A DNA stretch of 61,694 nucleotides, counting the filler, from Sphacelaria rigidula (Eukaryota): NCBI GenBank assembly GCA_964200075.2. It is 9 parts of 9 records of this genome, joined end to end, with 100 filler letters (N's around TTAATTAATTAA, not from the genome) between each part and the next. Parts side by side here need not be neighbours in the genome. Positions count along the whole stretch, not along the records: positions 6,868 to 13,633 come from CAXNAA020018184.1; 8 more parts are not named here. One strand, 5' to 3'. Shown one piece after another: positions 1,275-20,499 of the stretch. Both the position numbers and the translations under genes were made by a program. Every line of letters begins with the position of its first letter. Position 1 is the stretch's first letter. A model generated the notes under the pieces. The model worked only from the letters and a program-made list of their open reading frames with translations, ran no database searches and was not told the origin of the DNA.

Positions 1275-1970
1275 GGCAATAATCACCTCGAACAACTGCC
1301 GCGCACCATCAAGGCTTCACGCGGCTATTGTTCCGAAATCTCTCAGGGACGTACGTGAAAAGTACCCGTCACGCCGAGTGAGCGAGAGCTGCTGTTACTG
1401 TACAGCACTGTACAGCATGCCCGTAAATACCGCAAATCTGTCTGTGCACGAGTTATCTCAACATAAAGTTTTACTACCAGGCCCTGCGGGATCGAGTTTA
1501 GGCGGAATGCGAGTATTTTCGCGGAGTATGCTCTGCTCTACGTACGTTTAAGAACGCCTCGCATAGATTTCGACTGTAAATATTTTATTTTTTTGTAATG
1601 CGCTGGCGTAGTAGGGTTTTGTTTTCTCTGCCTGAAAAAAAAGCGATTGGGGTCGTCCGCTCTACATCAGCGGGCGGTCGAGCGTCTGCTCTGTGCACCG
1701 CCAACTGTATTCTGGCCAACGAGGAGCGTCGAGTCTACCGCGCTCTGGCAGTGTGATTTGGTTATAAATTCTGCACGAGTGGCAACAAGAGCACACACAA
1801 AGCCTTTTTTCTCAGCTGTGTTGTAAACAACGTGCGTGGGAGAGTTCGCGTAACCAGCACACAAACAACAACGCTTTTGTCGTGCTGGGGGGCACAGGAA
1901 CTTTTGACCCCACCTCTCTCTCTCGCTCCCCCGTTTTTTTGAATTTTTTTCAAATAACAAAACAAAATCC

Positions 1971-3308
1971 ATGTCCTCGCGATCAAAGCCTACCCGAGGG
2001 CGGGGGCGCGGGCGCGGAGCCGCCGCCGCCGCAGCGGCTGCTTCTCCTGCCCCGAACGGCCGAAAGAAGAGTCAGAGAGGAGGACGCGGCGCATTCGCCG
2101 GTGCTGGACGAGGTAGGGGTGGGAGAGGTCGAAATGCTGCTGCTGCTGCTGCTGCTGCTGCCGCTACTGCTGCTATGGGGAGCAGTACCAGTGGTACCAG
2201 TAGTAGCGAAAGTGAGGCAATCGAAGAGGATGCTGAGGGCTTATCTTCTTCCGACGGGCCAGGGGACGATAGTCCGGCGGAAGAGGAAGGGGATAGCTCG
2301 GAGGAGGAGGAGGAGGAGATGTCGCAGTCGGGGTCAGAAGCGAGTTCGAAAGAACAAGACAGTGGTAGTAGTGACGATGACGATGATGAGGCGGAGGAGC
2401 AAGTGGTGGAGGAGGAAACGGATGATGCCAGTAGTAATAATAATAGTAGTAGCAGTGGTAGTAGCAGCGAGGAAGCTGTTCAAAGTACTGAAAATGAAGA
2501 GGAGGAGGAGGAGGAGGAGGAGGAAACGCCAAAGCCTCAGAGGACGAAAAACAAACCACGGGCTGCTGCTACGACACCCACCAACAGAGGCGGGCGTGGT
2601 GGCGGTGGCCGGGGACGCCCACCAGGTCGCAGTAGAGGCCGCGGTCGGCGAGGACGTGGCGGGCGTGGCGGGCGAGGAAGCCGATCCCGAAAGCCACCAC
2701 CACCACCACCACCACCATCCTCGTCTTCAGAGGAATCCGATTCCGAATCAGCATCATCTGATGAAGCTGCTGAATCCTCGGCCTCTTCTGAGTTCATGCC
2801 GCCTTCGGCAGGACGGCGGCGGCGGCAAACCTCCTCGGCGGCCGCGGCCGCCGCGGCTGCGTCAGCGCCCAAGCGCGGTAAACGGCGAGGCAGCAGTGCA
2901 GTAGCAATGGCACCCTCCACACCAACAAGACGGAAAGGGTCCGCCGCTGCTGCCCCGTCTGCTGCGAAGGGCAAGAAGAAGGGCACGCCGGGACGCAAAA
3001 AGGGCAAGAAGAAAGCAGTAGCTGCGGAAGAGTCCGAGGATGAGGACGAGGAAGATGCCATCGAATTGGAGCCGCCGCCCTCACCCAAGCTGCCGAAGAT
3101 ACCTCCTCCTCCGCTGCCGACGGCTACACCTCTGGGACATCACGTCGCCGCAGGGGCTGCGGGTTTTGTGCTGGGCGCTGGGCGCATGCGCGCGGGCAAG
3201 CGGGGCTCCGCGCAGTCAGCCGGTGTTGAGATACTGACGCCCGAGTTTTTGGATGACTTGTTGGCATGCTGGGACTTTCTTCATCTGATGAGCATGGGTC
3301 AAACCAAG
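1971..3308 (+). CDS. Exon 1 of a DDT-domain chromatin protein (BAZ/ACF1-like). Long RGG, acidic and poly-Ala/Pro low-complexity N-terminus, AT-hook-like GRGRPPGR, start of the DDT domain
   Basis: GC-rich 446-codon stretch of the 1971..3338 ORF. PEFLDDLLACWDFLHLMS matches the DDT helix-1 pattern (xDLLxxWxFL). Donor AAG|GTATTT at 3308/3309, phase 0. Confidence 0.8.
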
Positions 3309-5296
3309 GTATTTGAAAAACTTTTTGAATTTCATTGACTGCGGTGTTGAAGAGATGTTGGGGTGGTCGGGCGAGAGGCCGTCATGTGTCATGTTTGGAC
3401 GAGAGATGATCGGGAGCATTGCAGATGAATTTGATTTCGGTTTGTTTCCCGACTTCATGTAAATGGTTTTGTGAGGTTGTTGCACCGTCTGTACGTTTCG
3501 AAACGTGTACTGTACCTGTACTTGGCAATGTATTATGCTGTTGGAGAGTACCGTAGTTGTTTTGTGGTTGTCATCCTCGGCTCGTGGGGGGTCTCAACCA
3601 AGTAGTCCTCCGCATCTTCAGGTATAAAATTGAACTCATGTTTTTTTCAAATATTGTGCGGTTAGCTCATCGAGGATTGGATTTGACACACGAGCAAAGA
3701 GAGCAGTTCCGCCGTTTTCCTCGTCCGCACATCTCCTGAGTATCCTCGATCGCATATTTTTGAATATATGAACGGCCGTGCACATTCGACTGTCCCGCCT
3801 CTTAGCTCTAGGGCTGTAGACCCTGGCCAATCGCAAGTCCCCGGCTTTCTCTCCCGTGTATTGGGATCCGAAGCGTGGCACAAAGTTTCGAGTTGCAGGT
3901 GGTGGGAGCAACATCTCAAGTCCCTCTAAAACTAAGGGGCCACATGCAGCACTGCACGCTCACCTTCCACATGTCTGTTTTTGAAAAATTGAAAACAAGT
4001 TTACCGACTGAGGAGCAGCAGACAGCGAGGCAACGCAACAATTACAGCAGATGTATCCCCACACCCTTCTTCCCCTGATTGATGATTGATTATCTCACAT
4101 TCCCTGTGCTCATGTCGATGTCTCCCCAAGTGTTTTCATGTTGAAAATGTTCTTGAGTTTCACCGTGTTTGTGTTTCTGTCGTGTGTTTGCGGTTGAACT
4201 GTCGGGAATTGGCTTTCGTCTGCCGTGTTACGGCTTGTGCTGAAGCGGCTAGCCGAGACTGCTTTTTACATGTGCTGCTTCGTCTCCGGGCAGACTTTCT
4301 TGTTCACAACACAATACGCGACCTGCATGTTCCCGTTTTAATTTTTTTTTCGCGAGCACGCTAGCGCACGGTCGGAATTGCCGGCGATGTTTGCCGCCCT
4401 TCCCTCAAAGTGTTCTATACATGAAAAACCGTAATCGTGGTTTTTCCTGTTTCCCTTTCACCACGTGGCACTTGTGTCTGTCGCCGGATGTTGTACTTCA
4501 TCTTCTCCATGCACCTCTGTGTGACTACTGACTGTTGTACATGTGTTGGGATTGGTCCTCATGTAGGCATTGCCAGCACCATAACTACGGTCATCAATCA
4601 GAACACTAATATAGTACACCCAATCAACGATAAATTTCCTCGTCTGTGCTGAAGACGCTTCAACAGTATTGCAACACAGAACAAATGGACTGACTGTTTG
4701 AACGTAGTGTCACGTACAATAGCAGTACAGTGACTGCGCGGACGGCGGACGGCTGCTTCGGGAGCAAAACAGACGTCAAGCAACATCCACACAACTTCAT
4801 AAAACACGCCTCCGCCACGCCGTCGAAACCCATCTCTCCACGGGCGGACCCACCAAATGCGGTGCCTTCGGAAAAAACAACACTGCTTCATCTCCGTTTA
4901 TGTGCGGTTGTATTATACGTTGGGTAGGGCTTTGGTTTTGTGTGGGGTGGGAAATGTAGATACGCAGCAGACCTCTATGAACGAAACTCCTGCTACGTGC
5001 AAGAATCTTCTTAAAGACGGCTGTCGTTGCGCATGCGCACTATCCCTTATGTTTTTGGGAAAAAGATCGCGGAGTAACGCCTCGAAAATGTTTTTCTTCA
5101 GCCGTATCCTACCGTCGGTGGTGCTGTATTCTCGTGTCAAAATTTTCGTGTCAAATAGAAATTGCCTTACCCCCCCCCACGCCTCCACGCGAGGTTAATG
5201 GTGTTACGACTACGGCGATGTGCACACGCTCCTTCCATCCACTCTCTCCGCCCGCCTCCTTTCCGCCGGCCCCTTCATCGAATCAACCATCTGTAG

Positions 5297-5500: not shown

Positions 5501-6172
5501 GTGATGACTTGATTTATTGCATTGTTTCTGTTGTTGCTGTTGTTGTGGTTCGCGGTTGTGGTTGTAACCGTTGGCAAGCAGCATGAGCAAAAAAAGGCAT
5601 CCGATGCACAGACGGAAAGATTCCCCTCCCCCAAAACAGGCATGGATTTTAGTGATGAATATCGAGATGAAAACCGATGTGATACGATATTAGACATCCG
5701 CCGTAGAAGTCGCGATATCGAGTCGTTATCCGATGTATCGCTTCGGGTGATATCGCACAATATCCGATACGATATCGGGAAATCCAAAGCCAAATTCGAA
5801 CCCAAAAAATGATCCATTTTCATGGGTTAATCGCCCCCCTGTGCAATGACCTGGTTTCCTGTGCAATAGTCGAGTTAAATCAGTTGTTGTTGTTGCTGTT
5901 GTCCCCAGTTTGGTATTCGAACCCTGCGTGGCGTCGTAGCTGTGTTCTTGATACATATATCTCATGAAACCGCCATAAAAGCAGACAAAGCAAAAATGAC
6001 GGGCCAAATCCCTCCTCAGGCGTGGAGAAGTCCTTTTGGTGTACCCGCATTGATTTCTCATCCTGGTTGGTGATCGTTCGTTATACTATACCCCATTTTC
6101 TTTTTGATTTCCTACACTTCACCTATGGAAGATGACGCCAATTGTTACCCCTGTACGAAAAATACGACACAG

Positions 6173-6253
6173 GTGTGCCTGGTCGACATGGTTCAGTCCG
6201 AGGTGGCGAGCTTGGACAAGCGGGACGGAGGGATAACCGTGCGACCTAATGCG
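6173..6253 (+). CDS. Exon 3 of the DDT-domain protein; the gene continues beyond the contig end
   Basis: ACACAG| acceptor and GCG|GTGAGT donor; 81 nt, phase 0. VCLVDMVQSEVASLDKRDGGITVRPNA continues the last DDT helix. Confidence 0.65.
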
Positions 6254-6697
6254 GTGAGTTGCGCATCCACTAGAGCGGTGGAGGGGTAGCAGGGGGAGTG
6301 TGTGTGGGGGGGTTATGATCGCACGTTTTTCATTTCCCCTCCTGATATGACCGTTTGTATCTCCACATCCAACAATGTTTTCGTGAGGTCGAGAGTCTCG
6401 GATACGATAGAGAGTGAGAAGTGTTCAATGAATGAAATAATAACGTAGTTTCAGTTCCAAAATCCTGTACAGCTGACGGCAATGACGGTCACCATAAGAG
6501 TCTCATGCTGGAAAATAAAATCCTCTACAGTACCTGTCGCTACTCCCATCATGAGGTGGGAGGCAAACAAAGAGACTATAAACCGTTGTTACCCTTCTCG
6601 AGTTAATTTCGTCGTACAACCGGGGAAAAAAAAACCAGCTGGCATGGCAGGAAGTGATGGTCTCCCAGTATCGCTATATATTTTCATGTCGTACACC

Positions 6698-6767
6698 GGT
6701 CGCCCCGGTGGCTCAGTTGGTAACCTCGTAACCTTCTGGTGGTTGAGTTGTGGGGTTCGATTCTCGG
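6698..6767 (+). mobile_element. 5' tRNA-like head of a SINE, truncated by the contig end
   Basis: GGTCGCCCCGGTGGCTCAGTTGG (A box) and GGTTCGATTC (B box). A near-identical head lies in reverse at about 41845..41917. Confidence 0.7.
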
Positions 6768-6867
6768 NNNNNNNNNNNNNNNNNNNNNNNNNNNNNNNNN
6801 NNNNNNNNNNNTTAATTAATTAANNNNNNNNNNNNNNNNNNNNNNNNNNNNNNNNNNNNNNNNNNNN
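6768..6867. other. Artificial contig linker
   Basis: 44 N + TTAATTAATTAA (stop in all six frames) + 44 N. Confidence 0.99.
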
Positions 6868-7030
6868 TGCCCTTAACTCATGAAAAAAAGAAAACATTTG
6901 GTACTTCAGTAACTTTTTTTTTTATGCCCTATGCACTGTCCATACCAAATTTCAGGGCCCAACTCTAAATGTATAAAAGAGCATGGGCGTGCAAACTTCA
7001 AGTCCGCCTCTAGGCTGGCCCAGCTCGTAC
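6868..7030 (+). repeat. Interspersed repeat, same family as 60740..61060
   Basis: TGCCCTTAACTCATGAAAAA...TGTCCATACCAAATTTCAGGG is shared with 60939..61060 (+) and 60740..60911 (-). Confidence 0.75.
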
Positions 7031-8728
7031 GCCATCAGGGACTGCTAACTCAGAGGATTATCTGGTCTTCACAAAATGTAAGCCTGACCTTCATGCAACA
7101 CATGTTGTGCTGCAGCCTGCGCGGCTTATGGCATGCCACCTGACCACTCGTGCGGTGGCTGACTTTACACTCGATAGTATCGAACTCAGTGGTTGCGATA
7201 CTAAAGATTGTGTTTGGGCCTGCTAGCCCCGGTGCCCACTCAACTGGCATCTTCCTACCCAGGTGGTATCGTACCACGACATACACGCAACTTGGTCTGC
7301 AGCTCACCGCGATATGCTCAAGTCGAGCTGATTTGGTACACTTGAGGAGTTATGGTTGGAGATGCAAATGCGGCACTCTTTGCCGGCCCAGCCTGCACGG
7401 TCGACGAGGGAAAGGGACTGCTGAACCCCTCTCGCGATAAAAAATAAAGGCGCACCAGGATACGGCGTCAACACTTCTTATCCGCTTGTCAAACCTCGTG
7501 CGAAGCGCAGCTCTGCAAGCATAGACAGCTCAGCAGTACAAGGTCGCACATGTACAGTCTCTATTTGTCACCGTGGAAGCCGAGATACGTCTCCGCCGCC
7601 CGCGGACGTTGCGACCAGAAGCTCTCGTACGTTCACCGTTTGTCGACAGTCGACACACGGGGAGTAGTTCGAATCAATCAGATCACGTACTTTAACAACC
7701 CCTCTCATCTCAGCCACGGACTGCGTCGGCATGCACAAGCGAAGACAAAGAAGAAAGCAGCAATGAAGCTTAAACTTCTTGAGGGTGTTTAAAGTGATTC
7801 GGAGAGCCCGTTGCTGCGTGTGATGCCTCCAACCTCCCAAAGAGCCTCGTTTGAAGTTGCGACAGTCAAGTCTGAGAAGTTGAATCAGGACTAGCCGTGG
7901 TCAAAATGGGTCGGGTTGGGCTATTCTTGAGACCGCTGACAGACAGAAGCGAAACACAACGCCATGAGCACCGATGACGCTGAAACTTGTCGAAGGCGTA
8001 TCGACTGATGAAAGAAGAGCGATGGGATGTTTTTTTCGCGCAGCGCGGCTTCGAATCCATTCGAGAAAGTGCGTGGTTCTGGCCTTTGTTGTGAGAGCGG
8101 ACGGATAAGATAGGATAGGACACTCTTTGAATTTCGGTCCAGTAGCACCCTTTTCGGCCTAGGGCCTCAAAGGAATATATCCCCAATATGTATAATCCCG
8201 TGTTACAGACAGGATGCACGCGGCTAAAACCACAGCGTACCTGAGGTAAATCCGCCGTACCCATACTGAGACAACTGAAACTCTCTGGCGTCGTGATCTG
8301 ACAGAAACAAATCGCCGTACGCGTTATTGTTCGTGGTACAAATGCTGTCGTAGGATGGACAAGCGTGGCAGTATGTACTGCACCAGTCAGGAAAGGTTGG
8401 GGGAAAGTACGAACTACAAGACAGTGGTGTCATGGTTCATCGGGTGGCCGACTACTCCGATCCATCTACTTGCGGCCAGCTTTTGGCAAATTGTCTCTCA
8501 AGGACACGGTCGACGCAAGTATGAAGACTGCGCCTCGACGAGAAACTGGTGGGGCGTGGCGCTGGAATATCAGGAACCCGCAGCCTCACAATCTGCTTTG
8601 CATCAATGGAAGAAAAAACAGTATTGTCAATTGTTGTCTGAGACCGCTGACAACAAACGCGAGCACACACCAGCACCCTTCTAGGTCAACCTGGGCAATG
8701 GCGTCGGTATAAGAAATGGTGCCATCTA

Positions 8729-11446
8729 TCATGCTTCGGGCGCCGGAGGATTCGCACTGGACACTCCTGGCTCCAACTTCACGTTCGAATTATTTTTTGC
8801 CTCTTCAAAAGCCGCACCACTGACTTCGCCCAGGCGTCCAGGTACCACCGCCGGCAAACCGCAGATCTGCCCATTACTTTCACCATCACTGCTGACAAAG
8901 CCACTACCACCACGCGCGCTTCTCCAACTGCTCGAAGAGGCAGCCAACTTACGATACTCCCTCATCCCATCGCCACTGTGAGTAGGAGAAGGGACCGCCA
9001 CCTCTACCTTCACCCCTACTCCTGCTTTTGTCCCAAAAGTCACCTTTCCACCAGTCCTTGAAAGTCGGCATCCCGAGAGCAACGGCGTTCTTACACCCTG
9101 CCTGGGACCGGCATCGGCATTGCGGCGAGCACCAACAAAGTCGGTTGCAACAGGACTCGAGAATGCCGCGCGATTGCGTTTCGTTCCTCGTACATCAGCA
9201 ACGCTTTCTCCACTGTCCTCCGTCGGACCACGGCCGGGGGCGCCCTCCTCAGTGTTGAGCATCGCGGTATCAGACACCGCAGCTGTGTTGCGTGCAGTAG
9301 CGTGCTCTCCGCAAAACGTCGCCTCATCAACGTTGTGTTCCTTGTGGATAACCCATTTTGAAGACCCCACTTCACTGCACCTTTTGCTTCCTATATTTAC
9401 CATTCCCGCGCTAGCATGCTCAGAGCAGAACTCTGCCTTTGCGCTGCCCGCAATAGCGTACGACCGCCTGTTGGAGGATCCCTCGTTGCTGTAGTTCTTG
9501 TTCACCACATCCACCATTTCCGCTCTTGCATGCATGGAGCAGAACTCCGTGTTTCCCACTAGACCATGAGACGCCTGAGTGGAGCAGCCCTCGTAGCCGC
9601 AACTTTTGTTCACAGCATTCACCCTGCCCGCCATAGCATGCTTAAAGCAGAACTCCGCTTTCTTGCTTCCCACTAATCCAAAAGACGCCTGAGTCGAGCA
9701 GCCTTCGTAGCCGCAGATACTAACTCGGACATTCACCATCCCCGCCATGGCATGCTTGGAGCAGAACTCCGCTTTCTTGCTTCCCACTACACCGAAGGAC
9801 GGCTTCGTGGAGCAGCCCACGCAGCCGCACTTCGTGTTTGCCACGTCCACCATCCCCGCCCTGGCATGCTTGGAGCAGAACTCCGCCTTCTTTCTTCCTA
9901 ACACACCATGAGACGGGTGCTTTGAGCAGCCCCCGTAGCCGCACTTCTTGTTTTTCACGTCCACCATTCCCACCCCGGCATGCTTAAAGCAGAACTCCGC
10001 CTTCTTGCTGCCCACCAATCCAAAAGACGCCTGAGTCGAGCAGCCCTCGTAGCTGCACATACTAACTCGGACATTCACCATCCCCACCATGGCATGCTTG
10101 GAGCAGAACTCCGCTTTCTTGCTTCCCACTACACCGAAGGACGGCTTCGTGGAGCAGCCCTCGTAGCCGCACTTCGTGTTTGCCACGTCCACCATCCCCG
10201 CCCTGGCATGCTTGGAGCAGAACTCCGCCTTCTTGCTTCCTACCACGCCGTAAGACGGGTGCTTTGAGCAGCCCTCGTAGCAACACTTCTTGTTTTTCAC
10301 GTTCACCATCCCCGCCCTAGCGTGCTTGAAGCAGAACTCCACCTTCTTGCCCCCTACTACACCATAACACGGCTTCGTGGAGCAGCCCTCGTAGCCGCAC
10401 TTCGTCCTTGCCACATTCACCATTCCCGCCATGGCATGCTCAAAGCAGAACTCTGCTTTCTTGCTTCCTACTACACCATAAGACGGCTTCGTGGAGCAGC
10501 CCTCGTAGCCGCACTTCTTGTTCATAACATTCACCATCCCCGGCCTGGCGTGCTCAAAGCAGAACTCCGCCTTCTTGCTTCCGAACACACCAAAAGACGG
10601 TTGCTTTGAGCAGCCCTCGTTGTCACACCTCTTGCTTTTCACGTTCACCATCGCCGCCCTAGCGTGCTTGGAGCAGAACTCCGCGTTCTTGCTTCCTACT
10701 ACACCATAAGACGGCTTCGTGGAGCAGCCCTCGTAGCCGCACTTCTTGTTCACAACATTCACCATCCCCGTCCTGGCGTGCTCAAAGCAGAACTCCGCCT
10801 TCTTGCTTCCTACTACACCATACGACGGGTGCTTTGAGCAGCCCTCGTTGTCACACCTCTTGCTTTTCACGTTCACCATCCCCGCCCTAGCGTGCTCAAA
10901 GCAGAACTCCGCCTTCTTGCTTCCTACTACACCATAATACGGCTTCGTGGAGCAGCTTTCGTAGCCACACTTCTTGGTTTTCACGTCAACCATCCCCGCT
11001 CTAGCGTGCTCAAAGCAGAACTCCGCCTTGCTTCCTACTACACCATACGACGGATGCTTTGAGCAGCCCTCTTCGCTGCACCTCTTGCTTACCACATTTA
11101 CCATCCCCGACCTCGCGTGCTCAAAGCAGAACTCCGCCTTCTTGCTCCCCACCACACCGTACGACGGATACTTTGAGCAGCCCTCGTAGCCGCACTTCTT
11201 GCTTTTCACGTCCACCATCCCCGCCCTAGCGTGCTCAAAGCAGAACTCCGCCTCCTTGCTTCCTACTACACCATAATACGGCTTCGTGGAGCAGCCCTCG
11301 TAGCCACACTTCTTGCTTTTCACGTTCACCATTCCCGCCCTAGCGTGCTCAAAGCAGAACTCCGCCTTCTTGTTTCCTACCACACCGTACGACAGATACT
11401 TTGAGCAGCCCTCGTCGCTGCACCTCTTGTTCATCACATTCACCAT
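8729..11446 (-). CDS. EsV-1-7 cysteine-rich repeat protein, 905 aa: 17 well-formed and 2 degenerate 38-aa C-x4-C-x16-C-x2-H repeats plus a low-complexity C-terminal tail
   Basis: Uninterrupted ORF of tandem 114-bp units, consensus MVNVKxKKCGYEGCSxxPSYGVVGSKKAEFCxxHARAG. This is the hallmark motif of the EsV-1-7 family (Ectocarpus virus EsV-1 and brown-algal proteins such as IMM). The 5' end may be pseudogenised. Confidence 0.88.
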   Translation of the reverse strand: MVNVMNKRCSDEGCSKYLSYGVVGNKKAEFCFEHARAGMVNVKSKKCGYEGCSTKPYYGVVGSKEAEFCFEHARAGMVDVKSKKCGYEGCSKYPSYGVVGSKKAEFCFEHARSGMVNVVSKRCSEEGCSKHPSYGVVGSKAEFCFEHARAGMVDVKTKKCGYESCSTKPYYGVVGSKKAEFCFEHARAGMVNVKSKRCDNEGCSKHPSYGVVGSKKAEFCFEHARTGMVNVVNKKCGYEGCSTKPSYGVVGSKNAEFCSKHARAAMVNVKSKRCDNEGCSKQPSFGVFGSKKAEFCFEHARPGMVNVMNKKCGYEGCSTKPSYGVVGSKKAEFCFEHAMAGMVNVARTKCGYEGCSTKPCYGVVGGKKVEFCFKHARAGMVNVKNKKCCYEGCSKHPSYGVVGSKKAEFCSKHARAGMVDVANTKCGYEGCSTKPSFGVVGSKKAEFCSKHAMVGMVNVRVSMCSYEGCSTQASFGLVGSKKAEFCFKHAGVGMVDVKNKKCGYGGCSKHPSHGVLGRKKAEFCSKHARAGMVDVANTKCGCVGCSTKPSFGVVGSKKAEFCSKHAMAGMVNVRVSICGYEGCSTQASFGLVGSKKAEFCFKHAMAGRVNAVNKSCGYEGCSTQASHGLVGNTEFCSMHARAEMVDVVNKNYSNEGSSNRRSYAIAGSAKAEFCSEHASAGMVNIGSKRCSEVGSSKWVIHKEHNVDEATFCGEHATARNTAAVSDTAMLNTEEGAPGRGPTEDSGESVADVRGTKRNRAAFSSPVATDFVGARRNADAGPRQGVRTPLLSGCRLSRTGGKVTFGTKAGVGVKVEVAVPSPTHSGDGMREYRKLAASSSSWRSARGGSGFVSSDGESNGQICGLPAVVPGRLGEVSGAAFEEAKNNSNVKLEPGVSSANPPAPEA

Positions 11447-11913
11447 TCACGCCCTGGCATGCTTGGAGCAGAACTCCGCCTTCTTGCTTCCTACCACACC
11501 GAAAGACGCCTGTGTGGAGCAGCTCTCGTCGCCGCACCTCTTGTTCATCACACTCACCATCTCCGCCCTGGCATGCTCAAAGCAGAACTCCACCCTTTTG
11601 CTTCCTACTACACCATACGACGGATGCTTCGAGCAGCCCTCGTGTTCACCACGTTCACCATCCCCGCCCTAGCGTGCTTAGAGCAGAACTCCGTCTCCTT
11701 GCCTCCAGCTACTCCTTGAGACGGCCCGTAGGAACAGCCCTCGTCAAAGCACTTGTTCTTCACATTCACCCTTCTCGCCATCGCATATTTGGAGAAGAAC
11801 TCCGCCGTGTAACCCTGTGCACCGTGAGATGGCGGCTCGGAGTAGCCCTTGGTGATGCACCTTTCTTCTGCGACGTCGGCCGCCAGGTCCTTCGCGTGGG
11901 GCTTCTTCGAAGA
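11447..11913 (-). pseudogene. Disrupted 5' extension of the EsV-1-7 array (about 4 further repeats)
   Basis: The same repeat units continue upstream. There is an in-frame TGA at 11449..11447, where other repeats have a Gly codon, and a frameshifting deletion of about 13 nt at 11644/11643 (GTG AAC|AC GAG GGC TGC). Confidence 0.75.
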
Positions 11914-13633
11914 CTAACTGCTTACGGTAGCACAAAAAGCCAAAACGGCGGGAAGTCTTCCATGAGCCATGTGTGAAAGCGAGTTGGAACGCTTTGCAGA
12001 ACGATCGGCACTTTTGTTGGGGTACATACTCCGGAGAAAAAGAGACTGACTGCATACAACTTCGACGACGCTACATGTAAGCTGACCTTGACAACTGCAG
12101 CAGCACTGCAAGAGAGTTCTAGCGAACGGGGCATCCTGTACACTTTTGAGGTAGGGATCGAAGGCGAACAAAGCACTACCGCAGTACAATAGCAGGATAA
12201 TTGTGCAGCGGAAAACATGCCAAAGCACCATACCACCACAAAACCCTACCCAAACTTGAACAGAGACAAGACAGTGGATTTGAATCGACAGTATTACAGC
12301 TACCATTTCTGCTGTCATCGTTTCGACGCACACTCCGTCTGCATGGCACCATATAGCACATGAACGCCGAGACGCACTAGAGGGACACGGATCATGCATC
12401 GATACCGGCTGGACAAGGTTGAGCAAATGCACGCCGTCGTGCGAAGGCAACTGCGAATACATGGCCCAGGCCATGTTCCAGGCCATGATCTTATCGATAT
12501 TTCCCTGCTGGGTATTCCTCGTTGCACAGATAGAAGCGAGGGGCCCCATATTGGAGAACCCATGCACCACCGCTACCCCCCCTACCCGCGGTCGAGAATG
12601 AGCAAAATACCAAATCAATTTGGCAAAAACCTTATCCTTCCTTTTCCTCCACTAGTATACGGAATTGAACGATCATTGAGATATCTCGGGGTTCGCCTCA
12701 ACGAGAGCAGCTCAAAACCGAGGAGTTTTGGTGCGCCAGCTGTTCTTGTGGCGATTGGGGAGCAATTTTACTAGCTGGAAAATGACTTTTGACTCGCGAC
12801 GATCACTGGATAATGAATATTGAGTCCGGCTGGCTTTTGCAAGACCTCTTGTTACCGACCTGGCAATATCGCAGTGATACGGCCGCCATACTAAGAAGGG
12901 CGGTGTACGACGAACAGTTCTGTACTGATACTGAATGACTGAGAAGGACATGTAGTAGGTTGGACTGTGCGGTGTTACCAGCCGACACGAAAATGTTCTG
13001 ATATTATAGACGTGCACAATGTGTGAGTTGCAGATGATCACGTACTTTGCCCATAGTTGGGCAGACAGCCGTGTGCATACAACGCGTATATCTACATATC
13101 GCAATTCATACTGCACTGCGACACAAGAGAGAGAGAGGTTGCAAAGGGGAATATTATGGACGTGGTGTTGCGAAAAAGAATATCCAACATCGAGGTAGCG
13201 GCAGTCATGAAATATAAAATACGTGAGATTGATATTGTTATGCCCGCAAGGGCAAATCCATGCAAACTGCGGGGTGCCAGGCGTGCGCGCCCGTTTCACG
13301 TTCACCGCTTGCAAGACTTCTAGAATCTGCGGCACATTTCCAGCGCCGGTACCCTGAGCGCTTTGATCTTCACTCCCTGCTTCTGCGGGCATCTTCTTCT
13401 CCACTTGCTTTGACTTACCCCTACCACCTACCGCTTCGGTACACGCGGCGCAGGCCGACGTTACCAGCAAACACGTGCGGTGCCATCATCTAGCGATCAG
13501 GGGGTACCCCTCCCATTGAATCGGGTACCTCCCCCCCCCCCCCCCCCCCCCCCACCCCCCGAGCTGGATTCGGGGGGGTAGGGGGGGGGGGGGGGAGTGG
13601 ATTTCTCTATTTGGGCCGCCTGCGTGAAAATGC

Positions 13634-13733
13634 NNNNNNNNNNNNNNNNNNNNNNNNNNNNNNNNNNNNNNNNNNNNTTAATTAATTAANNNNNNNNNNN
13701 NNNNNNNNNNNNNNNNNNNNNNNNNNNNNNNNN
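13634..13733. other. Artificial contig linker
   Basis: N44-TTAATTAATTAA-N44. Confidence 0.99.
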
Positions 13734-14910
13734 TTCACTGATTGACCGCTTTTCGCTCTCAATCGTATCATCTACTCTCAATCTCACGAGAACACTGTTA
13801 GCAGTAGTAGCGGTGACGGGAACATTGCCCTGTTTTGCAGCGCACAGAAGCGCGTCCTGTCAAAAAAGAGAGGCAGAGAGAAATCCATCTTCGCATTGGT
13901 GACCTCCACAGAAAAAGAGACGGAATCTCTCCGCACCTTGATAACGGTTGATGGGGACCATCATGGAATGTTACAAACTAGCACTAACACTAGCCCCAAC
14001 CCCGACCCCGACCCAAGGCGCACGAGATCCTCGAGCGAGGAGGACGCATAGATTCCCCCGGGCCAAGTGTGCGTTGGCAGACTTCAAATCGTCGCCTAAA
14101 ACGCCGATTTCGACAAAAACACGTTCTGGGCGAGCTGGGTCCACTGCTCACCTGTCCCAAACCATGTATTGCTCAGAATTTTATCGGGTCTCAAATCTTG
14201 CAGCCATCCATCCCTGTCAACCATTTTGTGTACTAACACTTCTTTAGGTCTACTGCTCTTCATCATGCACTCTGGTACTGGTGTGTAGTAAGTATCTCGT
14301 CCAGGAAGCTCAACCAGACCTGACCATCCTTGTCGCCGAAGCCAGTCTACACACCGGCACACGCTCCTTTGTATCAAGAGTGTGCGTGCCAGCTTTCGAC
14401 AACGGTGCCAACTGCCTCCGCGCACACACCGTATTCCAACATGCCCGCACTAAGGGTGCTGTCACATTATATTGCTTGTAACGCAGGATGTGCCCGCACT
14501 CAGGCCGTAACATATTATACCGCTGCACTACGACAGGAGTGGGTGTGCCTGATAAGCACCGTGTTGACCCAGCTCTGCCACCACACCACAGCCTTGGCCA
14601 AGCGTAGCAGTGAGAAGGATTCACTCTTTGAAGGTGATTCCGATACAACATCCGCCGGAAATACCCTCCCCACGCCGTACCGACAAGACCGGTCATGGCC
14701 TTCGTTGGAGGACGGGAAACGGAGCAATAAATACTCTACTCAAAGTTTGAGTAGGTTTGCTCCAAGGGTCAACTAGCCTCTTGTTATGTACTACAACCCG
14801 AAGTGTCGTGGAACAATTCAAGAGGTCCCCGTTAGCGCGGTTCGAATAAACTGGTCGCTCTTAATTGGATGTTCAACTCTCAATTTCACGAAAACATTGT
14901 CAACGAGTGT

Positions 14911-16068
14911 AATAAGGTTACTCGGTGATATCAAGAAAAAATCCGCAACATCTGGGCGAACTGTAGGTGAGGCGCAATCGCTGAAAATTTCACCTGCAAA
15001 CTCTGCTCCAGCGCACTGTAAGTTTACATCGCTAGAACGATACTACCATAACCGCCTTGCGGGCTGCCAGACTGTCACAGACTCTCAGGACGTAGGAACC
15101 GCTAGCATTGCTACTGCCTGTACGGGGGTGTTGCCCCCTTCTCAGGTACGTTTTGGGGTATGATACAAGATGGAGATCACCCTTCCTTGGACATGGGCAC
15201 CAAACGCTGGGCTTCTCCCTCCAGACTTTGAATTGGAGGATGATACTACGTAGGCAGCGGCAACTGCTGTGTGTCCACGTGCCCCTTGAAGCAGGATGCG
15301 TTTGGTGTCCATTTGACAAAGGTATCCCCAAAAATCCCGAAATCGATAAGGGTTTTAGACTGGAAAAATCTAGCAAAAAAACTATCGCAAGGATCCGATC
15401 GCAAGAATCCCGACGCAAAAATGGAGTCGCAAAAAACCTCTTCGTCGGATTTTTACCCGCAGCAGAAACCAACTTCACTTTGTGAAATTGGAATGCATAT
15501 AATGTTACTCAATGATATCGTGAAAAACTCCGCAACATCTGCGCGAACTGCGCGTGAGGCAATCGCCGAAATATTCACCTGCAAACTCTGCTCCGGTGCA
15601 CTGTACGTTGATATCGCTAGAAGGACACTACCATGACCACCTTGCCGGCTGCAAGACTGTCAGGACGTAGAATCCGCTAGCATTCCTTTTGTCTATGTGA
15701 GGATGTTGCCCCCTTGTCGGGTACGTTTGGGAGCGTGATACTAGACGTAGATCATCGTTCCTTGTACATGGGCGCCAAACGATGGGGGTTCTCACTCAAG
15801 ACTTCGCTTCGGAGGATGATACTAGATCGGCAGCAGCAACTGCTGTGTCCAGGCGCCCCTTGGAGCAAGATGTGTTTGGTTTCTATTTGATGAAGGTATC
15901 CCCAGAAAACCGAAATCAAGAGGAGTTTCAAAGTGGAAAAATCTAGCAATAAAAGTGTCGCAATAATCGGGTCGCAGAAATCAAGTCGCACAAACGCAGT
16001 CTCAAAAAATCATGTAGTCGAATCTTTACCCGCAGCAGAAACCAACTTCACTTCGTGAAATTCGAATA
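14911..16068. repeat. Diverged tandem duplication, unit about 587 bp
   Basis: Collinear anchors GATATC...CCGCAACATCTG, TTCACCTGCAAACTCTGCTCC and TTTACCCGCAGCAGAAACCAACTTCACTT each occur twice (GATATC at 14927 and 15514). Confidence 0.85.
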
Positions 16069-17471
16069 CCCACGTCATCATTCAATTCAGCCAGGCAATA
16101 TCTATACCCACCTCCACGTATTATGATGACAAACAATTTTTATCGTCCACCACCCACCTGAAATCGAGTGCCCTGTGACCTACACCTCTTGAGAGGATGT
16201 TGGGTGCCATACACTAGCGTCGAGGACGTTATGAGAACTCAAATATGGTCTCGACACCGGTCGAAGAGGCCATTGACATAGTCCAGCTCAACAGTATTGC
16301 ATGTTTTATAACACGCGTGAGGTTATGTCGGGCATTAATCATCATATATAGTATCGTGGTACACTACACTGTCTGGATTTTCGTGTTCGCCCAAATACTT
16401 GACACACACTGCACTTCACAGGTCAGAATATATCAACTATCCTTTCGAGAAACAGGAAAAAGTACCAAGCGAATTTTCAGTCTCAACGATCACTCCAGTT
16501 CAGATCTTTTGACAGTCTCACCATATTGTTGAAACATGAGCAGCACATTACGGTGCCACATATCACAGCCAGCTCCAAATTTATCTAGAACACACTGATG
16601 AGCTGCCACCTACAGACACACTACCGCCACTGTCACATCATGCCCCTAATGATGCCATGTAACTGTTTGGGCTTTACCCACAAAATCAAAGTCATCACGC
16701 GGATCACCATAGGGATGAGACCACGAAACACTCATGAGACTCGTGCTTCATCAATCGGTGTTTTTGTGATTCACCAACGAGATGGCAGGAAGACGCGATG
16801 CGGTAACATCCCCAGCTGCGGCTGGCAACGTGCCATCACTAATAGGGTTTGCGGGCCTGAGAGGGAGTTTAGATGACGTACAGGCAGTGATCTCCCGAGT
16901 ACTCAAGGGGACACCACGTGTAGAGCCGTGGGTTGCAGCAGGTGGGAGGGAGGAATCATGTGGCCGACCGCACCCCGCGACGTTCAAAATACCCCGAAAA
17001 AATGAAGGCAATCTGTTTCATACCCCTCCCTAAACAGTCCTGCTAAAACACAAAGCGTGCGGCATCCTCGGAATCATTGTGTCGCTTGCTATGCACAAGG
17101 CACAGGGGAATCTCTTGTGCAGAAATAAAATTAAAGCTAGAACTGGCCTTTCAAGTTGCAGGCCTGCGCGGCATGTGAACTCCGTCACTGCCAAGATCAG
17201 CCAGTCTGACCCGCTACATTTGACTTTCGGAACGGAAATGGCGCACGGCGGAAATAAGGAACCACCAACTCATCGAGAAGTGCGCAATTACTTCTCGGGT
17301 TGTCTAAGCAGTGAAGCGAATCACTGAGCAATGTAAATTCCCTGGCTCCTCCAGTCTCTACGAAAACACACACGCATACCTCTTTCGCACACGCACACGA
17401 GAAACAAAGCTAAATCAAAACCAAAGTCCACGGTCATCCACTTTTGCGGACGAAACGTGAAGGTACTTCGT

Positions 17472-17568
17472 TCATGCCGCGACTGCCTCCCTTTCCGCGC
17501 CCATTTTCACTCCCTGGTCCAGCACGCCGCTCTTCAACAACTCTTCGATCCTCTCCGCCTCCTCGTAT
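17472..17568 (-). CDS. Putative terminal coding exon of an unidentified gene
   Basis: A long polypyrimidine tract precedes an AAG| acceptor. GC3-rich codons read YEEAERIEELLKSGVLDQGVKMGAEREAVAA followed by TGA. Confidence 0.45.
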
Positions 17569-18196
17569 CTTCGGCGGAAAGCAAACGCACAAAACCACAA
17601 GGAGGATCAACGTAGGAACGAAAGTAGAGCGAAAATGAGCGGGATAGAGAGATAAAAAACGAACCGAAGGAAGAGAGTAACCCTTTCAAGCGTCAACGAT
17701 GGGGGGTTCAATCAGCGTGGCTGGATAGCACGTGCATGTAAAAACAATATCGCGTCTTCTTCTGCTTCTCCATTTAAATCGTGTCTCCTTTTTGCATAGT
17801 TGGCAGCCGAGAGTTCCTGCTCGATAGCGCGGGCTCTAAATACCTCCTCAGTCGCCACCTGTTTCAACGGCCACGCTGCTAGTACGACCTACTATGTAAA
17901 GCATTGGCAGGGGGCTGTCGGAGTTGCCTCCCCCGGGACCACACTAGGTAGGTAACACGGGAATTTCCAATCGCGGATGGATTTGCTCTTGAGAATGCGC
18001 TTTGGGAATCTTCATAAGCATCGAAATATACATTTTTTCAAGTGCATATGCATGCTCCGGCCGTTACGTGGTGCCTCGCTTATCCTGAAAAAAAGTGCAT
18101 CCGCAATTTTTGAAATCCCGTGTTCTTATTTTTCAGAATCCATTTTTAACGCGGGATTTTACAACTTGCGCATGAATTTTTTTCAAGAATGAGCGA

Positions 18197-18413
18197 GGCC
18201 ACACATCATGGCCGGAATATGTGTTTCCATTAGTTTCCAAAATCTTTCAATACCTTGCTTGAGTTCGTCCATCATGAGGCCACGGCTGGACCCCTGGCCA
18301 CACATCAAGGCCGGAAAATGTGTTTCCATTAGTTTCCAAAATCTTTCAATACCTTCCTTGAGTACGTCTATCATGAGACCACGGGTCAGTTAAGGTGCGA
18401 CAATCAATCAATC
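18197..18413 (+). mobile_element. 3' end of a non-LTR retroposon with a 99-bp internal tandem duplication and a (CAAT)n tail
   Basis: Units start at 18197 and 18296. It ends in CATCATGAGACCACGG...GCGACAATCAATCAATC, a motif also seen at about 46102..46170 (-), 49159..49212 and 58469..58524. Confidence 0.6.
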
Positions 18414-20499
18414 ATAAAGGTTCCCGGGGCTCATCTTCAACACAAATCTACGTATACGCAATTTGAAAAATGATGTGTTGATCAGTGTCTGGAAGTTCAT
18501 CATGGTTGTTTCATCCATCATTTATTCATGTTTGCTCTTAGTTTTGAGTTCTTGTTCGGGAGTGTTCCCGTACATGTACAGAGGGTAGTGCGTTTGTTTG
18601 GTAACCACTGCTAAAGTATTCCCAGCGGATCATTCAATGTACGACAATCATCCACTCGATCGAAACATCACTCAACATGTACGCATATCCGACACGAGGA
18701 GAAGGAGAATATTGTCGTTTCCATCATCAGGCATTGAATTCACCATGCTCACGCTCAGCTCAAGGCACATACCACCAGCACAGCAGTCGAAAACCCGTCG
18801 TGTCCATCTGACGGTTCAACGACAACCATGTCTGGCAGAGGAACAGCCAACTGTCAACGTTCAAAATGGTTGGCGCAACTTCAACTCGTGCGTTGGCGGG
18901 TCAGTAAGTGTAGCTTGTTCAGCATGACACAAAGCAAAACATGTCTCAAAGTAGAGAGAAGGTACAACGAGCACACGTGCAAACGAGCTGGCTACCCCGA
19001 GGCTATTGCTTGTACTCGCGGTACCTGAACCACTTTGGCCAAATACCGGTAGTGATTTCAGCATTCAACCGGGGGTGGGGGGAGTGGAAGCACGTATTTT
19101 CGCACGTGGTAGTCGAAGTTCAAAGTCCGCATGTTCAATTGGAAGCGATTTTCCCAGGTTTTGCGGTTACCACGATTCACAAGGGTTTCAGCTCAATCCC
19201 AAATATTGGGAATCAAGAGACGTGAGTTCCCGACGCAAGTTTGGAGAAAACTCTGTTCATGACGACGATTTTTTTCAAGGAGATACAGGCTCACCGGTCT
19301 TTGAGGGTCCTACGAGTATACGGCGGCTCTTCTCGCTCTTCGATATCTTCGCTTCACAGAACCGATCCGGATAGTTACAACGAACTATTTAATTACTTCA
19401 TTATTTTCATCTTCTCGATACCTATTGCCCTACAGGCGGTAAAACGTGTTTTTGGACCATGTACGGTCGACAACACCTACTGGATAGACGGGGGTTTCAC
19501 CACGTATCGTTCCAGCAACACAGAAATGGTGGAGGTTTCCTGAGCACGACCTGCTATTTTTTTCAACGCCTACCGACTCGAAAACCCTCCAGTGAAGATA
19601 ATAAATCGTCTGTGAAAAATTCCCCATTGAAAGAATACCGTGTGTAAGCTTTGACCACGAGCACTGTAGTATGAACCCTCCTTCCCCTATTCGTCAGGCC
19701 GACTGCATATTCCGCAGGGATCAACCCCCATCTCTCCTGGTACAGTATTTCCTATCGTGTACGTTATTCCTGAGCATGGCACCAGCGCTCCAGAAAAAGG
19801 CATTGGCTTTGGACAGTTCCAGTTCCATCGTACCCTCATCTGGGTGGCACACAACATCAAAACTTGGCTGTGCTACACAGCGCAAAACATGCCGACTGCG
19901 AAGAGATTCCAACTTTGGCCCTCCCATTCAATGCGTTTGGAATTGCGAACAGCCCAGTCTGCATTTCGAAACGATCTCCACGAGGGGAAAACGTTGTTGC
20001 TTGTTGTACTCATGCGCGTCAATTTTTTGTTCTCACCCGTACTGCACACAGTCCCCAAACGCAACACCCGTGATGTAGTTGCCGCCCATTCGGAGGCCAG
20101 GCGCCGCCTTCAAGCCCTCCTCGAGATCGGCCAAGATGCCTAGGTGACCTCTCTGATATCTGCCGCGATATGACAAAGACAACGATTCTCTCGAGTCAGT
20201 CCGACTGCGAGAATTCTACGCGTGCAAAACGTTAGCGTCGCAGGTTCATAGGGGTGCGAGACTTCACCGGGGGCCGGGTGCAAGGACACATATCCCAGGT
20301 GAGAGTATTTTACGTTCAAGCCGACTAGTGATATTCACCGTACTCCACAATACTTGCTTGTCCACGAGGTAAACGGGGCAAGGGATGAGGAGGCATGGGA
20401 AGCTGGATCATCAATTTAGCGATGCTCAAGTTATAGGAATGAGCTTTACCGATTTGCGCACATAGCACCGGAGTCATGCTACGATAGGGACGGGGGGGG

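What the first reader, a model, noticed from the sequence alone, without database searches (positions are those of the whole stretch)
9290..11446. EsV-1-7 zinc-finger-like array with position-specific variable residues: candidate modular, TALE/PPR-like recognition code
Seen: the 38-aa scaffold (MV.V....C...GCS..P..G..G.KKAEFC..HA..G) is nearly invariant. Positions 16-17, right after the second Cys-Ser, switch among a small vocabulary. Repeats 1-17 read KY, TK, KY, KH, TK, KH, TK, KQ, TK, TK, KH, TK, TQ, KH, TK, TQ, TQ. Positions 19-20 (SY/YY/SF/CY/SH), 5-8 and 32-33 (FE/SK/FK) also vary discretely, and the repeats are very basic. Known: EsV-1-7 repeats are shared by giant viruses and brown algae (e.g. 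Ectocarpus IMM); to my knowledge their ligand is not established. Inference: one C3H finger per unit with a discrete variable di-residue is the architecture expected of a programmable nucleic-acid reader, possibly in gene regulation or antiviral defence.
Basis: partly seen in the sequence, partly recalled or inferred. Interest (0 to 1): 0.78.

Follow-up and report, generated by a model that had tools for sequence, protein, structure and literature searches.

The report
Long brown-alga EsV-1-7 zinc-repeat gene
This is an unusually long member of a known brown-alga and giant-virus family of small zinc-binding repeats whose job is still unknown; it probably binds DNA or RNA in the nucleus, but a TALE-like recognition code is not shown.

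Summary
A 905-codon minus-strand ORF (8729-11446) carries 17 intact and 2 decayed 38-residue EsV-1-7 units (Pfam PF19114, E 1.6e-266). All 17 listed di-residues are correct.

- **Against a code in this array:**
  - Units are 67-97 % identical at DNA level.
  - About 20 positions vary, most of all linker positions 5-8.
  - Units sharing a di-residue are also closer at synonymous sites elsewhere (p 0.0002), so the small vocabulary is largely inherited from block duplications (342-bp period).
  - Positions 16-20 change at 0.70 of the synonymous rate.
- **For unit-specific residues:** across 98 related arrays, position 17 is the residue most often changed between sister units (55 % of 174 pairs). 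Positions 6 and 19 follow.
- **For DNA binding:**
  - The array is basic (pI 9.2).
  - Viral relatives join such arrays to nuclease-like domains.
  - The tail is a conserved region, found mainly in Sphacelaria rigidula proteins, with an NLS-like motif and two SUMO-type motifs.

Best reading: a nuclear multi-finger nucleic-acid binder, more like C2H2 finger arrays than TALE or PPR. It is a new member of a known family. This scan has already noted the modular-reader idea on giant-virus DNA.

The parts
8729..11446 (-). Open reading frame of 905 codons: 19 EsV-1-7 units followed by a conserved C-terminal region. It starts at the Met that opens a unit, as its closest relatives do.
9518..11446 (-). 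17 intact 38-residue units (114 bp each) with ligands C9, C14, C31, H34. A higher-order period of 3 units (342 bp) is present.
9293..9517 (-). Units 18 and 19, with cysteines lost. Unit 19 is a divergent terminal unit that is conserved in the subfamily.
8732..9289 (-). Conserved C-terminal region of 186 residues that defines a subfamily, mostly Sphacelaria rigidula proteins.
9170..9181 (-). K-R-N-R, an NLS-like basic motif (K-R-K-R in most relatives). K75, R76 and R78 are conserved in at least 90 % of 17 aligned sequences.
   Evidence: the NLS consensus is recalled
9002..9013 (-). V-K-V-E, the first hydrophobic-K-x-E motif (SUMO-type consensus). E134 is invariant; K132 and V133 are at least 90 % conserved.
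   Evidence: the consensus is recalled
8771..8782 (-). V-K-L-E, the second hydrophobic-K-x-E motif near the C-terminus. K209 is at least 90 % conserved.
11447..11449 (-). In-frame TGA where the other units have the Gly38 codon. It cuts off the upstream units.
11450..11661 (-). Two further units upstream of the TGA. The distal one is broken by a 13-nt deletion near 11642 that removes its first Cys and shifts the frame.
11662..11877 (-). Two more units in another frame, one good (i-E 3.5e-15) and one decayed (i-E 5.7e-05). This is the decayed 5' edge of the array.

Best explanation
The gene encodes a very long member of the brown-alga/giant-virus EsV-1-7 family.

Shown:
- There are 17 intact 38-residue units. 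Each carries three Cys and one His spaced CX4CX16CX2H.
- The array grew by duplicating blocks of two to three units.
- It evolves under purifying selection on the scaffold.
- The tail is a conserved region of a Sphacelaria-type subfamily.

Inferred:
- Each unit folds on its own around one zinc. The predicted unit is a knuckle, a small three-stranded sheet completed by the M-V-x-V of the next unit, and a short helix. Four-residue basic linkers (positions 5-8) join the units like beads on a string.
- The protein enters the nucleus. The tail has an NLS-like motif and two SUMO-type motifs.
- The array binds DNA, or possibly RNA. Many basic units add their contacts, as in C2H2 multi-finger proteins.
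- The residues that flank the conserved Pro18 (17 and 19), together with linker residues 5 and 6, are the best candidates for unit-specific contacts.
- The small di-residue vocabulary in this array is a by-product of block duplication, not a read-out code.
For: Family membership:
- PF19114 matches with 18 stretches, E 1.6e-266.
- 271 relatives have E <= 0.001; the named ones are brown algae.

Growth by duplication:
- Mean identity at a lag of 3 units is 0.864, against 0.80-0.82 at other lags. Pairs 12/15, 2/5 and 6/8 are 97, 95 and 94 % identical.
- Units with the same di-residue are closer at synonymous sites of the other codons (0.179 against 0.270, permutation p 0.0002).
- On a tree built without codons 16-17 the label needs 7 changes. 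24 of 1000 shuffles need 7 or fewer, and 4 of 6 sister pairs share the di-residue.

Selection: pN/pS is 0.38 overall and the ligand residues are invariant.

Unit fold: the AF2 model has pLDDT 85.7, with strands at unit positions 20-22, 28-30 and 1-3 of the next unit, and a helix at 32-34. It matches viral EsV-1-7 models with TM-score up to 0.76.

Nucleic-acid lead:
- The array has pI 9.22.
- K or R predominates family-wide at positions 7, 8, 16, 26, 27 and 35.
- Relatives carry a helicase-associated domain in 2 of 20 proteins scanned.
- 4 of 29 BFVD matches are named Endonuclease and 1 is named DNA primase.
- The P0001 C-terminus matches phrog_559 HNH endonuclease at E 2e-5. A model of its homologue best matches Bax1, I-Bth0305I and Vsr nucleases at Z 7.0-8.2.

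Nuclear lead: the tail motifs are conserved in 17 aligned sequences.

Unit-specific residues: position 17 differs in 55 % of 174 sister pairs, position 6 in 47 % and position 19 in 45 %. Equally diverse positions 10, 15, 22, 25, 29 and 36 differ in 13-26 %. The result holds in both subsets.
Against: - No binding data exist, and zinc binding itself is not tested.
- No solved structure resembles the unit. Foldseek finds nothing at E <= 0.001 and the best VIA match is Z 3.1 to RING domains. RING-like zinc modules usually bind proteins.
- The nuclease evidence comes from distant viral relatives and from a low-confidence model (pLDDT 46.6). Its Z of 7-8 is within the range the tool calls common.
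- According to the 2026 preprint, no Ectocarpus EsV-1-7 gene has another Pfam domain, so algal members offer no fusion clue.
- The NLS and SUMO readings are matches to short consensus motifs. Hydrophobic-K-x-E motifs are only 1.4-fold enriched outside the repeats across relatives (110 observed, 77 expected).
- In this array's six youngest unit pairs, only 1 of 27 residue changes is at position 16-17.
- Four upstream units are cut off by a stop codon and a frameshift, so the gene has lost part of its array.
Confidence: 0.5

Rival explanations
1. One reading: a true modular code. Each unit reads one base or a short word, and the residues after the second Cys (16-17, with 19-20) set the specificity. 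The array would then be a programmable reader like TALE, PPR or designed zinc fingers.
For: - Position 17 is the top sister-unit hot spot family-wide and in both subsets: 34 of 60 and 57 of 109 pairs.
- Position 19, on the other side of the conserved Pro18, is third.
- In 838 distinct units, positions 17, 19, 5 and 6 vary largely independently of each other. The 17-19 pair ranks 88 of 703, as free code positions would.
- Residues at position 17 are mostly R, Q, H, K and Y here, and R, Q, I and H family-wide.
- Viral arrays are joined to nuclease-like domains.
Against: - The contrast is graded (about 2-fold over the mean), not all-or-none as in TALE. About 20 of 38 positions vary.
- Position 16 (ratio 0.36) and position 20 (0.25) are not fast-changing.
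- In this array the vocabulary follows descent.
- pN over array pS is 0.90 for positions 16-17 and 0.70 for 16-20, not above neutral.
- The units are not helical solenoid repeats.
- No target is known and no correlation of residue with base exists.
Confidence: 0.12
2. The units are protein-binding (or other non-nucleic-acid) zinc modules. The array would be a scaffold that gathers partners, as LIM, RING or B-box modules do. The fast-changing surface residues would reflect changing partners or weak constraint.
For: - The only structural neighbours, though weak, are RING domains (Z 2.2-3.1, 38-43 residues aligned).
- Small zinc modules with only ligands and a few core residues conserved are common protein binders (recalled).
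- A conserved tail with SUMO-type motifs fits a regulatory hub.
- The function of IMM is unknown.
Against: - The array has a strong net positive charge, +7.8 per 100 residues.
- Relatives fuse the array to nuclease-like, primase-named and helicase-associated domains.
- An earlier scan note reports a single unit fused to viral RPB2; I did not test this.
Confidence: 0.25
3. The locus is a decaying or neutrally drifting tandem array with no present function. The variable residues would be drift in a dying gene.
For: - An in-frame TGA and a 13-nt frameshift cut off four upstream units.
- Units 18 and 19 have lost cysteines.
- The six youngest unit pairs show 27 replacement against 15 synonymous-only codons.
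- The gene sits alone in a gene-poor stretch with a transposon fragment.
Against: - A 905-codon frame stays open, with all four ligands intact in 17 of 17 units and pN/pS 0.38.
- The tail motifs are conserved against paralogues.
- Subfamily proteins normally start at the Met of a unit, so the ATG at 11446 gives a normal-looking gene.
- Decayed edge units are usual in tandem arrays (recalled).
Confidence: 0.08

Closest known systems
EsV-1-7 domain protein family (Pfam PF19114; Ectocarpus IMMEDIATE UPRIGHT; EsV-1 gene 7)
   Same: - The same CX4CX16CX2H unit in tandem, with no other Pfam domain.
- A brown-alga-type sequence.
- The family is described as a possible new class of zinc finger with no known biochemical function (passages read).
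- The model matches the BFVD model of EsV-1-7 (Q8QNQ2) at E 7e-17 and 51 % identity.
   Different: - This gene has 17 intact units (23 counting decayed ones). IMM has five (passage), and the most in any of the 271 relatives fetched here is 16.
- The ORF starts directly with a unit, so it lacks an N-terminal region such as the one said to be unique to IMM.
- It has its own conserved C-terminal region.
Sphacelaria rigidula 'unnamed protein product' paralogues (P0241, P0242, P0246, P0247, P0257, P0260 and others)
   Same: - The same C-terminal region: 75 % identity to P0241, with 26 representatives at E <= 1e-10.
- The same divergent terminal unit and the same start at M-V-N-V.
   Different: They carry 0-6 canonical units, against 17 here. 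The best is only 75 % identical, so it is a paralogue or the product of a related species, not the same gene.
Giant-virus EsV-1-7 arrays joined to nuclease-like domains (P0001, P0273; BFVD entries named Endonuclease)
   Same: The same unit in long tandem arrays (16 in P0001), with position 17 again the fastest-changing residue (N21 subset).
   Different: - The viral proteins end in a domain with alpha-beta-beta-beta-alpha-beta order. Its best structural matches are Bax1, I-Bth0305I and Vsr (Z 7.0-8.2, from a low-confidence model).
- The window's gene has no such domain. It has a tail of short motifs instead.
C2H2 multi-finger proteins such as KRAB zinc-finger genes (comparison from recalled knowledge)
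   Same: - Independently folded zinc units on short linkers.
- Arrays that grow by unit duplication, with unit number varying widely between paralogues.
- A few surface positions that diverge faster than the rest, and large lineage-specific family expansion.
   Different: - The ligand set and spacing differ (C3H, CX4C...CX2H).
- The fold is mainly beta with a very short helix.
- There is no conserved TGEKP-type linker.
- Binding is not shown.
TALE and PPR repeats
   Same: Tandem units of 34-38 residues, and an idea of one variable site per unit.
   Different: - TALE and PPR units are helical hairpins that stack into a solenoid and bind no metal.
- TALE units are nearly identical apart from residues 12-13.
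- Here the units are zinc-plus-beta modules, 67-97 % identical at DNA level and variable at about 20 positions.

Membership tests
EsV-1-7 cysteine-rich repeat family (PF19114) | Match to the family profile above the curated cut-off | tested here: met
   860.2 bits against a cut-off of 25, with 18 stretches
EsV-1-7 cysteine-rich repeat family (PF19114) | Cys-Cys-Cys-His with CX4CX16CX2H spacing in each unit | tested here: met
   All four ligands are present in 17 of 17 units and the spacing is exact in 15 of 17. The same spacing is the commonest in relatives, 861 occurrences.
EsV-1-7 cysteine-rich repeat family (PF19114) | Binds one zinc per unit (proposed for the family, not shown in the passages read) | not testable with these tools
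   Only the ligand pattern and the AF2 unit model are available.
TALE repeats | Near-identical units with variation confined to two residues | tested here: not met
   Unit DNA identity is 67-97 %. Among the 17 units, 27 of 38 positions show more than one residue, and 13 have entropy above 1 bit.
TALE / PPR repeats | Helical-hairpin units stacked into a solenoid | tested here: not met
   The AF2 model shows short strands and one 3-residue helix per unit, with pTM 0.47. This is a prediction, not a structure.
C2H2 zinc fingers | C2H2 ligand set with a beta-beta-alpha fold and a recognition helix | tested here: not met
   The ligands are C3H with CX4C and CX2H. There is no Pfam C2H2 hit and no PDB fold match.
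Treble-clef / RING-like or GATA-like zinc modules | Zinc knuckle, then a beta hairpin, then ligands at the start of a helix | tested here: inconclusive
   The order of elements in the model fits, but the best matches are only Z 2.2-3.1 to RING domains.
Sphacelaria-type EsV-1-7 subfamily with conserved C-terminal region (named here for convenience) | C-terminal region of about 185 residues with a K-R-x-R motif and two hydrophobic-K-x-E motifs | tested here: met
   33 representatives at E <= 0.001, the best at 75 % identity over residues 1-185. The motifs are conserved in alignment A2.

The most novel reading that the evidence does not exclude
EsV-1-7 arrays are a further natural class of modular nucleic-acid readers. 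In each 38-residue zinc unit, residue 17 would choose the base or short word that the unit contacts, helped by residue 19 and linker residues 5-6. Brown algae would have expanded such readers into a large family of nuclear regulators, as animals did with KRAB zinc fingers. Giant viruses would use the same arrays to aim homing nucleases. This 17-unit gene would then read a long, specific site.
Probability: 0.15. Interest if true: 0.85.

Novelty: new member of a known kind. Interest (0 to 1): 0.45.

Why it matters
EsV-1-7 genes form one of the largest family expansions in brown algae. The Phaeoexplorer study counted 2018 members, and a 2026 preprint finds them in the largest orthogroup (passages). 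One member, IMM, controls early development. In the papers I could search, no ligand or biochemical activity is reported.

- Residues 17, 19, 5 and 6 are a short list of unit-specific candidates.
- The conserved tail has nuclear-type motifs.
- The viral nuclease fusions offer a natural way to decode targets.

If the arrays prove to be sequence readers, they would explain a major regulatory innovation in an independent multicellular lineage. They would also give a new designable DNA- or RNA-binding scaffold. If they are not, this gene is simply a large member of a known family.

Tried and rejected
- **Whole genome:** none is held for this window, so a genome-wide census of units was not possible. 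I used 271 relatives from protein searches instead.
- **PDB by sequence:** 0 matches at E <= 10 for four units. Only chance-level rows appeared for P0001 and for profile A3 (best E 0.29, an A20-type finger).
- **PDB by fold, unit model:**
  - Foldseek found 0 matches at E <= 0.001 among 12 at E <= 10.
  - The VIA wide search reported 8 chains at Z >= 2 of 48161, the best Z 3.1.
  - The VIA second look found 1 of 12 at Z 2.1.
  - No fold class can be assigned from these.
- **Surface mapping:** model coordinates are not returned, so I could not test whether residues 16-20 line one face.
- **Covariation:** it showed no coupling among positions 17, 19, 5 and 6. This does not decide between free code positions and unconstrained loops.
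- **Sequencing runs:**
  - Eight runs from two studies of one coded organism hold half or more of the sampled words, and a ninth run from a third study holds about a third.
  - No RNA holder is listed.
  - The four runs laid are contigs of unknown kind, broken at the repeats. They give no usable evidence on transcription, on the TGA or on the frameshift.
  - The stretch 12052-12499 had no cover.
- **Viral insert:** rejected. Of 85 open frames scanned, only one has a Pfam match, a copia-type Pol_BBD. I passed 85 of the 94 frames of 110 or more codons. The nine dropped were the ORF itself, six frames overlapping the array on other frames or strand, and two overlapping frames at 2176-2726.
- **Pfam on 20 relatives:** apart from the helicase-associated domain in 2 of 20, the extra 'domains' in the precomputed lists are sub-threshold or cysteine-pattern artefacts. 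Examples are CoV_NSP13_ZBD, Zf_WRKY19, IL8 and Gallidermin, all with 0 independent stretches.
- **Protein Atlas on the P0001 C-terminus:** scores of 0.86-0.89, a lead only.
- **Macaisne et al. 2017:** the founding paper is not held. I know it only from citing passages.
Full report
**What is there**

The window looks like eukaryotic nuclear DNA.
- Open frames are sparse and no whole genome is held.
- Of 85 open frames scanned with Pfam, only a copia-type Pol_BBD fragment at 29731-30369 matched.

On the minus strand, a 905-codon ORF runs from 11446 to 8729.
- Pfam assigns it to EsV_1_7_cys (PF19114) with 18 stretches, E 1.6e-266.
- Tandem Repeats Finder gives a 114-bp period (18.4 copies) and a 342-bp period (6.9 copies).
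- A profile built from the units finds 23 units in six-frame translation. All lie between 9293 and 11877 on the minus strand, and none lies elsewhere in the window.

**Check of the observation**

Cutting the protein at each M-V-x-V gives 17 intact units of 38 residues.
- Unit 4 lacks one residue and unit 17 lacks two.
- C9, C14, C31 and H34 are invariant.
- Units 18 and 19 have lost cysteines.
- The array is basic: pI 9.22, with K+R 101 against D+E 51.

- The most variable positions are 5, 6 and 8 in the linker, and 17. Position 16 is a simple K/T switch.
- Position 16 is linked to positions 17, 8, 10 and 11, so units fall into types rather than mixing freely.
- The array continues upstream of the ATG. 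An in-frame TGA at 11447-11449 stands where the other units have the Gly38 codon.
- Beyond the TGA lie two more units, one broken by a 13-nt deletion near 11642. Beyond those lie two more units in another frame.

**Is the small vocabulary a code or a history?**

The units are old copies.
- They are 67-97 % identical at DNA level, with overall pS 0.38, pN 0.15 and a ratio of 0.38.
- Identity is highest at a lag of three units (0.864 against 0.80-0.82). Pairs 12/15, 2/5, 6/8, 11/14 and 13/16 are 90-97 % identical, which explains the 342-bp period.

The vocabulary follows this history.
- Units that share a di-residue are also closer at synonymous sites in the other 36 codons (0.179 against 0.270, permutation p 0.0002).
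- On a maximum-likelihood tree built without codons 16-17, the label needs 7 changes. Only 24 of 1000 shuffles need as few, and 4 of 6 sister pairs share the di-residue. That tree is poorly resolved: 3 of 14 inner branches are well supported.

So the vocabulary is largely inherited from a few unit types that were copied in blocks.

Rates do not exceed neutral.
- Replacement change relative to the array's synonymous change is 1.01 for positions 5-8, 0.90 for 16-17 and 0.70 for 16-20.
- The six youngest pairs differ at 27 residues. One of these is at positions 16-17, three are at 16-20 and three are at 5-8.

These per-site estimates rest on few changes.

**The family at large**

From 271 relatives I took units with the exact spacing.
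- In 240 of these proteins there are 841 such units in 214 proteins.
- Within arrays of six or more units (72 arrays), the highest entropies are at position 6 (1.90), 17 (1.86), 19 (1.74) and 5 (1.74).

I then compared each unit with its closest sister in the same array (70 % to under 100 % identity).
- In 174 pairs from 98 arrays, position 17 differs in 55 %, position 6 in 47 % and position 19 in 45 %.
- I scaled each value by that position's family-wide diversity.
  - Position 17 gives 0.64 (bootstrap 0.56-0.73), against a mean of 0.31.
  - Positions 10, 15, 22, 25, 29 and 36 are just as diverse across the family but give only 0.15-0.29.
- Position 17 is first in arrays with Gly at position 21 (alga-like, 34 of 60 pairs). 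It is also first in arrays with Asn at position 21 (virus-like, 57 of 109) and in the rest (5 of 5).
- Position 16 (0.36) and position 20 (0.25) are not fast-changing.

This is a real, graded signal. The residues on either side of the conserved Pro18, and the first linker residues, are unit-specific, while other surface positions are array-specific. It fits specificity-determining residues. It also fits a loop under weak constraint.

Covariation does not tie these positions together; the 17-19 pair ranks 88 of 703. The sample is limited to hits of my own queries, and the pairs are not independent.

**Structure**

An AF2 model of units 5-8, built with 60 aligned sequences, has mean pLDDT 85.7 but pTM 0.47.
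- Each unit shows strands at positions 20-22 and 28-30, a short helix at 32-34 that carries C31 and H34, and a third strand formed by positions 1-3 of the next unit.
- The structural unit therefore runs from C9 to V4 of the next repeat, which is the Pfam register. Positions 5-8 form a four-residue basic linker.
- The low pTM suggests beads on a string rather than a rigid solenoid.
- However, the model superposes on BFVD models of two viral arrays with TM-scores of 0.75-0.76 over about 150 columns.

No solved structure resembles the unit. The best match is Z 3.1 to RING domains.

I could not obtain coordinates, so the 'one face' test remains open.

**What relatives suggest about function**

The papers I could search describe the family as a possible new zinc finger of unknown function.
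- It is greatly expanded in brown algae, often in tandem gene arrays, and IMM is the one member with a phenotype (passages).
- Searches for 'EsV-1-7' (11 papers) and for the Pfam/InterPro identifiers (2 papers) turned up no paper on ligand binding or per-position variation.
- I read passages, not whole texts, and the founding paper is not held.

Earlier notes of this scan, made on other DNA, reported giant-virus arrays joined to Vsr-like nucleases. I partly checked this:
- 4 of 29 significant BFVD matches are named Endonuclease and one is named DNA primase.
- P0001 has 16 units. Its C-terminus matches phrog_559 'HNH endonuclease' at E 2e-5.
- A model of its homologue P0272 is poor (pLDDT 46.6). 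It has alpha-beta-beta-beta-alpha-beta order, and its best matches are Bax1 (Z 8.2), I-Bth0305I (7.7), a Neisseria endonuclease-like protein (7.3) and Vsr (7.0). The tool warns that Z 7-8 is common.
- Two of 20 relatives scanned carry a helicase-associated domain.

Together these make DNA the most likely ligand, but none of this comes from the algal branch.

**The tail**

The last 186 residues are not junk.
- A full HMMER scan of 1.84 billion representatives finds 33 proteins at E <= 0.001 and 26 at E <= 1e-10. The best is 75 % identical over the whole tail.
- Eight of the ten looked up are Sphacelaria rigidula products. The source is therefore probably that alga or a relative; this is an inference.
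- An alignment of 17 sequences shows three conserved islands: a basic K-R-K-R motif (K-R-N-R here) and two hydrophobic-K-x-E motifs (coordinates).
- From recalled consensus rules, these look like a nuclear localisation signal and SUMO attachment sites, which are typical of nuclear regulators.
- The paralogues start at the Met of a unit and carry 0-6 canonical units. None of the 271 relatives has 17 or more.

So this gene is an expanded member of a subfamily whose unit number changes quickly.

**Verdict**

The thing is real. It is a new, very long member of a known family.

The most likely mechanism is a nuclear, multi-unit zinc protein that binds DNA or RNA through many basic modules. Residues 17, 19, 5 and 6 are the candidate specificity contacts. 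This works more like C2H2 finger arrays than like TALE or PPR.

A strict di-residue code at positions 16-17 is not supported by this array. The evidence does not exclude a looser modular read-out centred on residue 17, and that idea is worth testing.

Noticed in passing
window 1908-3335 (+): A 476-codon open frame encodes an extreme low-complexity protein with runs of Ala, Arg-Gly repeats, long Ser/Glu/Asp acidic tracts and a Pro run. It has no Pfam match and sits in the most GC-rich part of the window (0.569).
   Followed up: partly
window 29731-30369 (+): A fragment of a copia-type retrotransposon polyprotein (Pol_BBD, E 4e-11). It is the only other Pfam match in the window.
   Followed up: partly
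window 6900-7800: Summed word depth of laid contigs is in the thousands in all four runs (6,000-19,000 in two bins), against tens in the neighbouring bins. This suggests a high-copy repeat or transposon just downstream of the gene.
   Followed up: no
window 6768-6867, 13634-13733 and every 6866 bases onward: Pairs of 44-base N runs recur at a fixed spacing. They look like masking rather than assembly gaps. Two 10-base N runs at 41832 and 51581 are separate.
   Followed up: no
P0001 residues about 1050-1080; P0272 residues 11-34: In the viral nuclease-fused relatives, a separate small Cys-rich element lies between the array and the nuclease-like domain. It weakly resembles the A20-type zinc finger of TNFAIP3 (E 0.29).
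   Followed up: no
window 9404-9517 (unit 18) and P0241: The loss of the first Cys (replaced by Tyr) in the penultimate unit is shared with the Sphacelaria paralogue P0241. This 'broken' unit is therefore older than the gene duplication and may be a tolerated or functional variant.
   Followed up: partly
window 9518-11446, positions 16-17 of the units: 14 of 17 units keep a Lys at either position 16 or 17 (K-x or T-K). Only the three T-Q units lack one. This looks like a charge kept in the loop while its place shifts.
   Followed up: no
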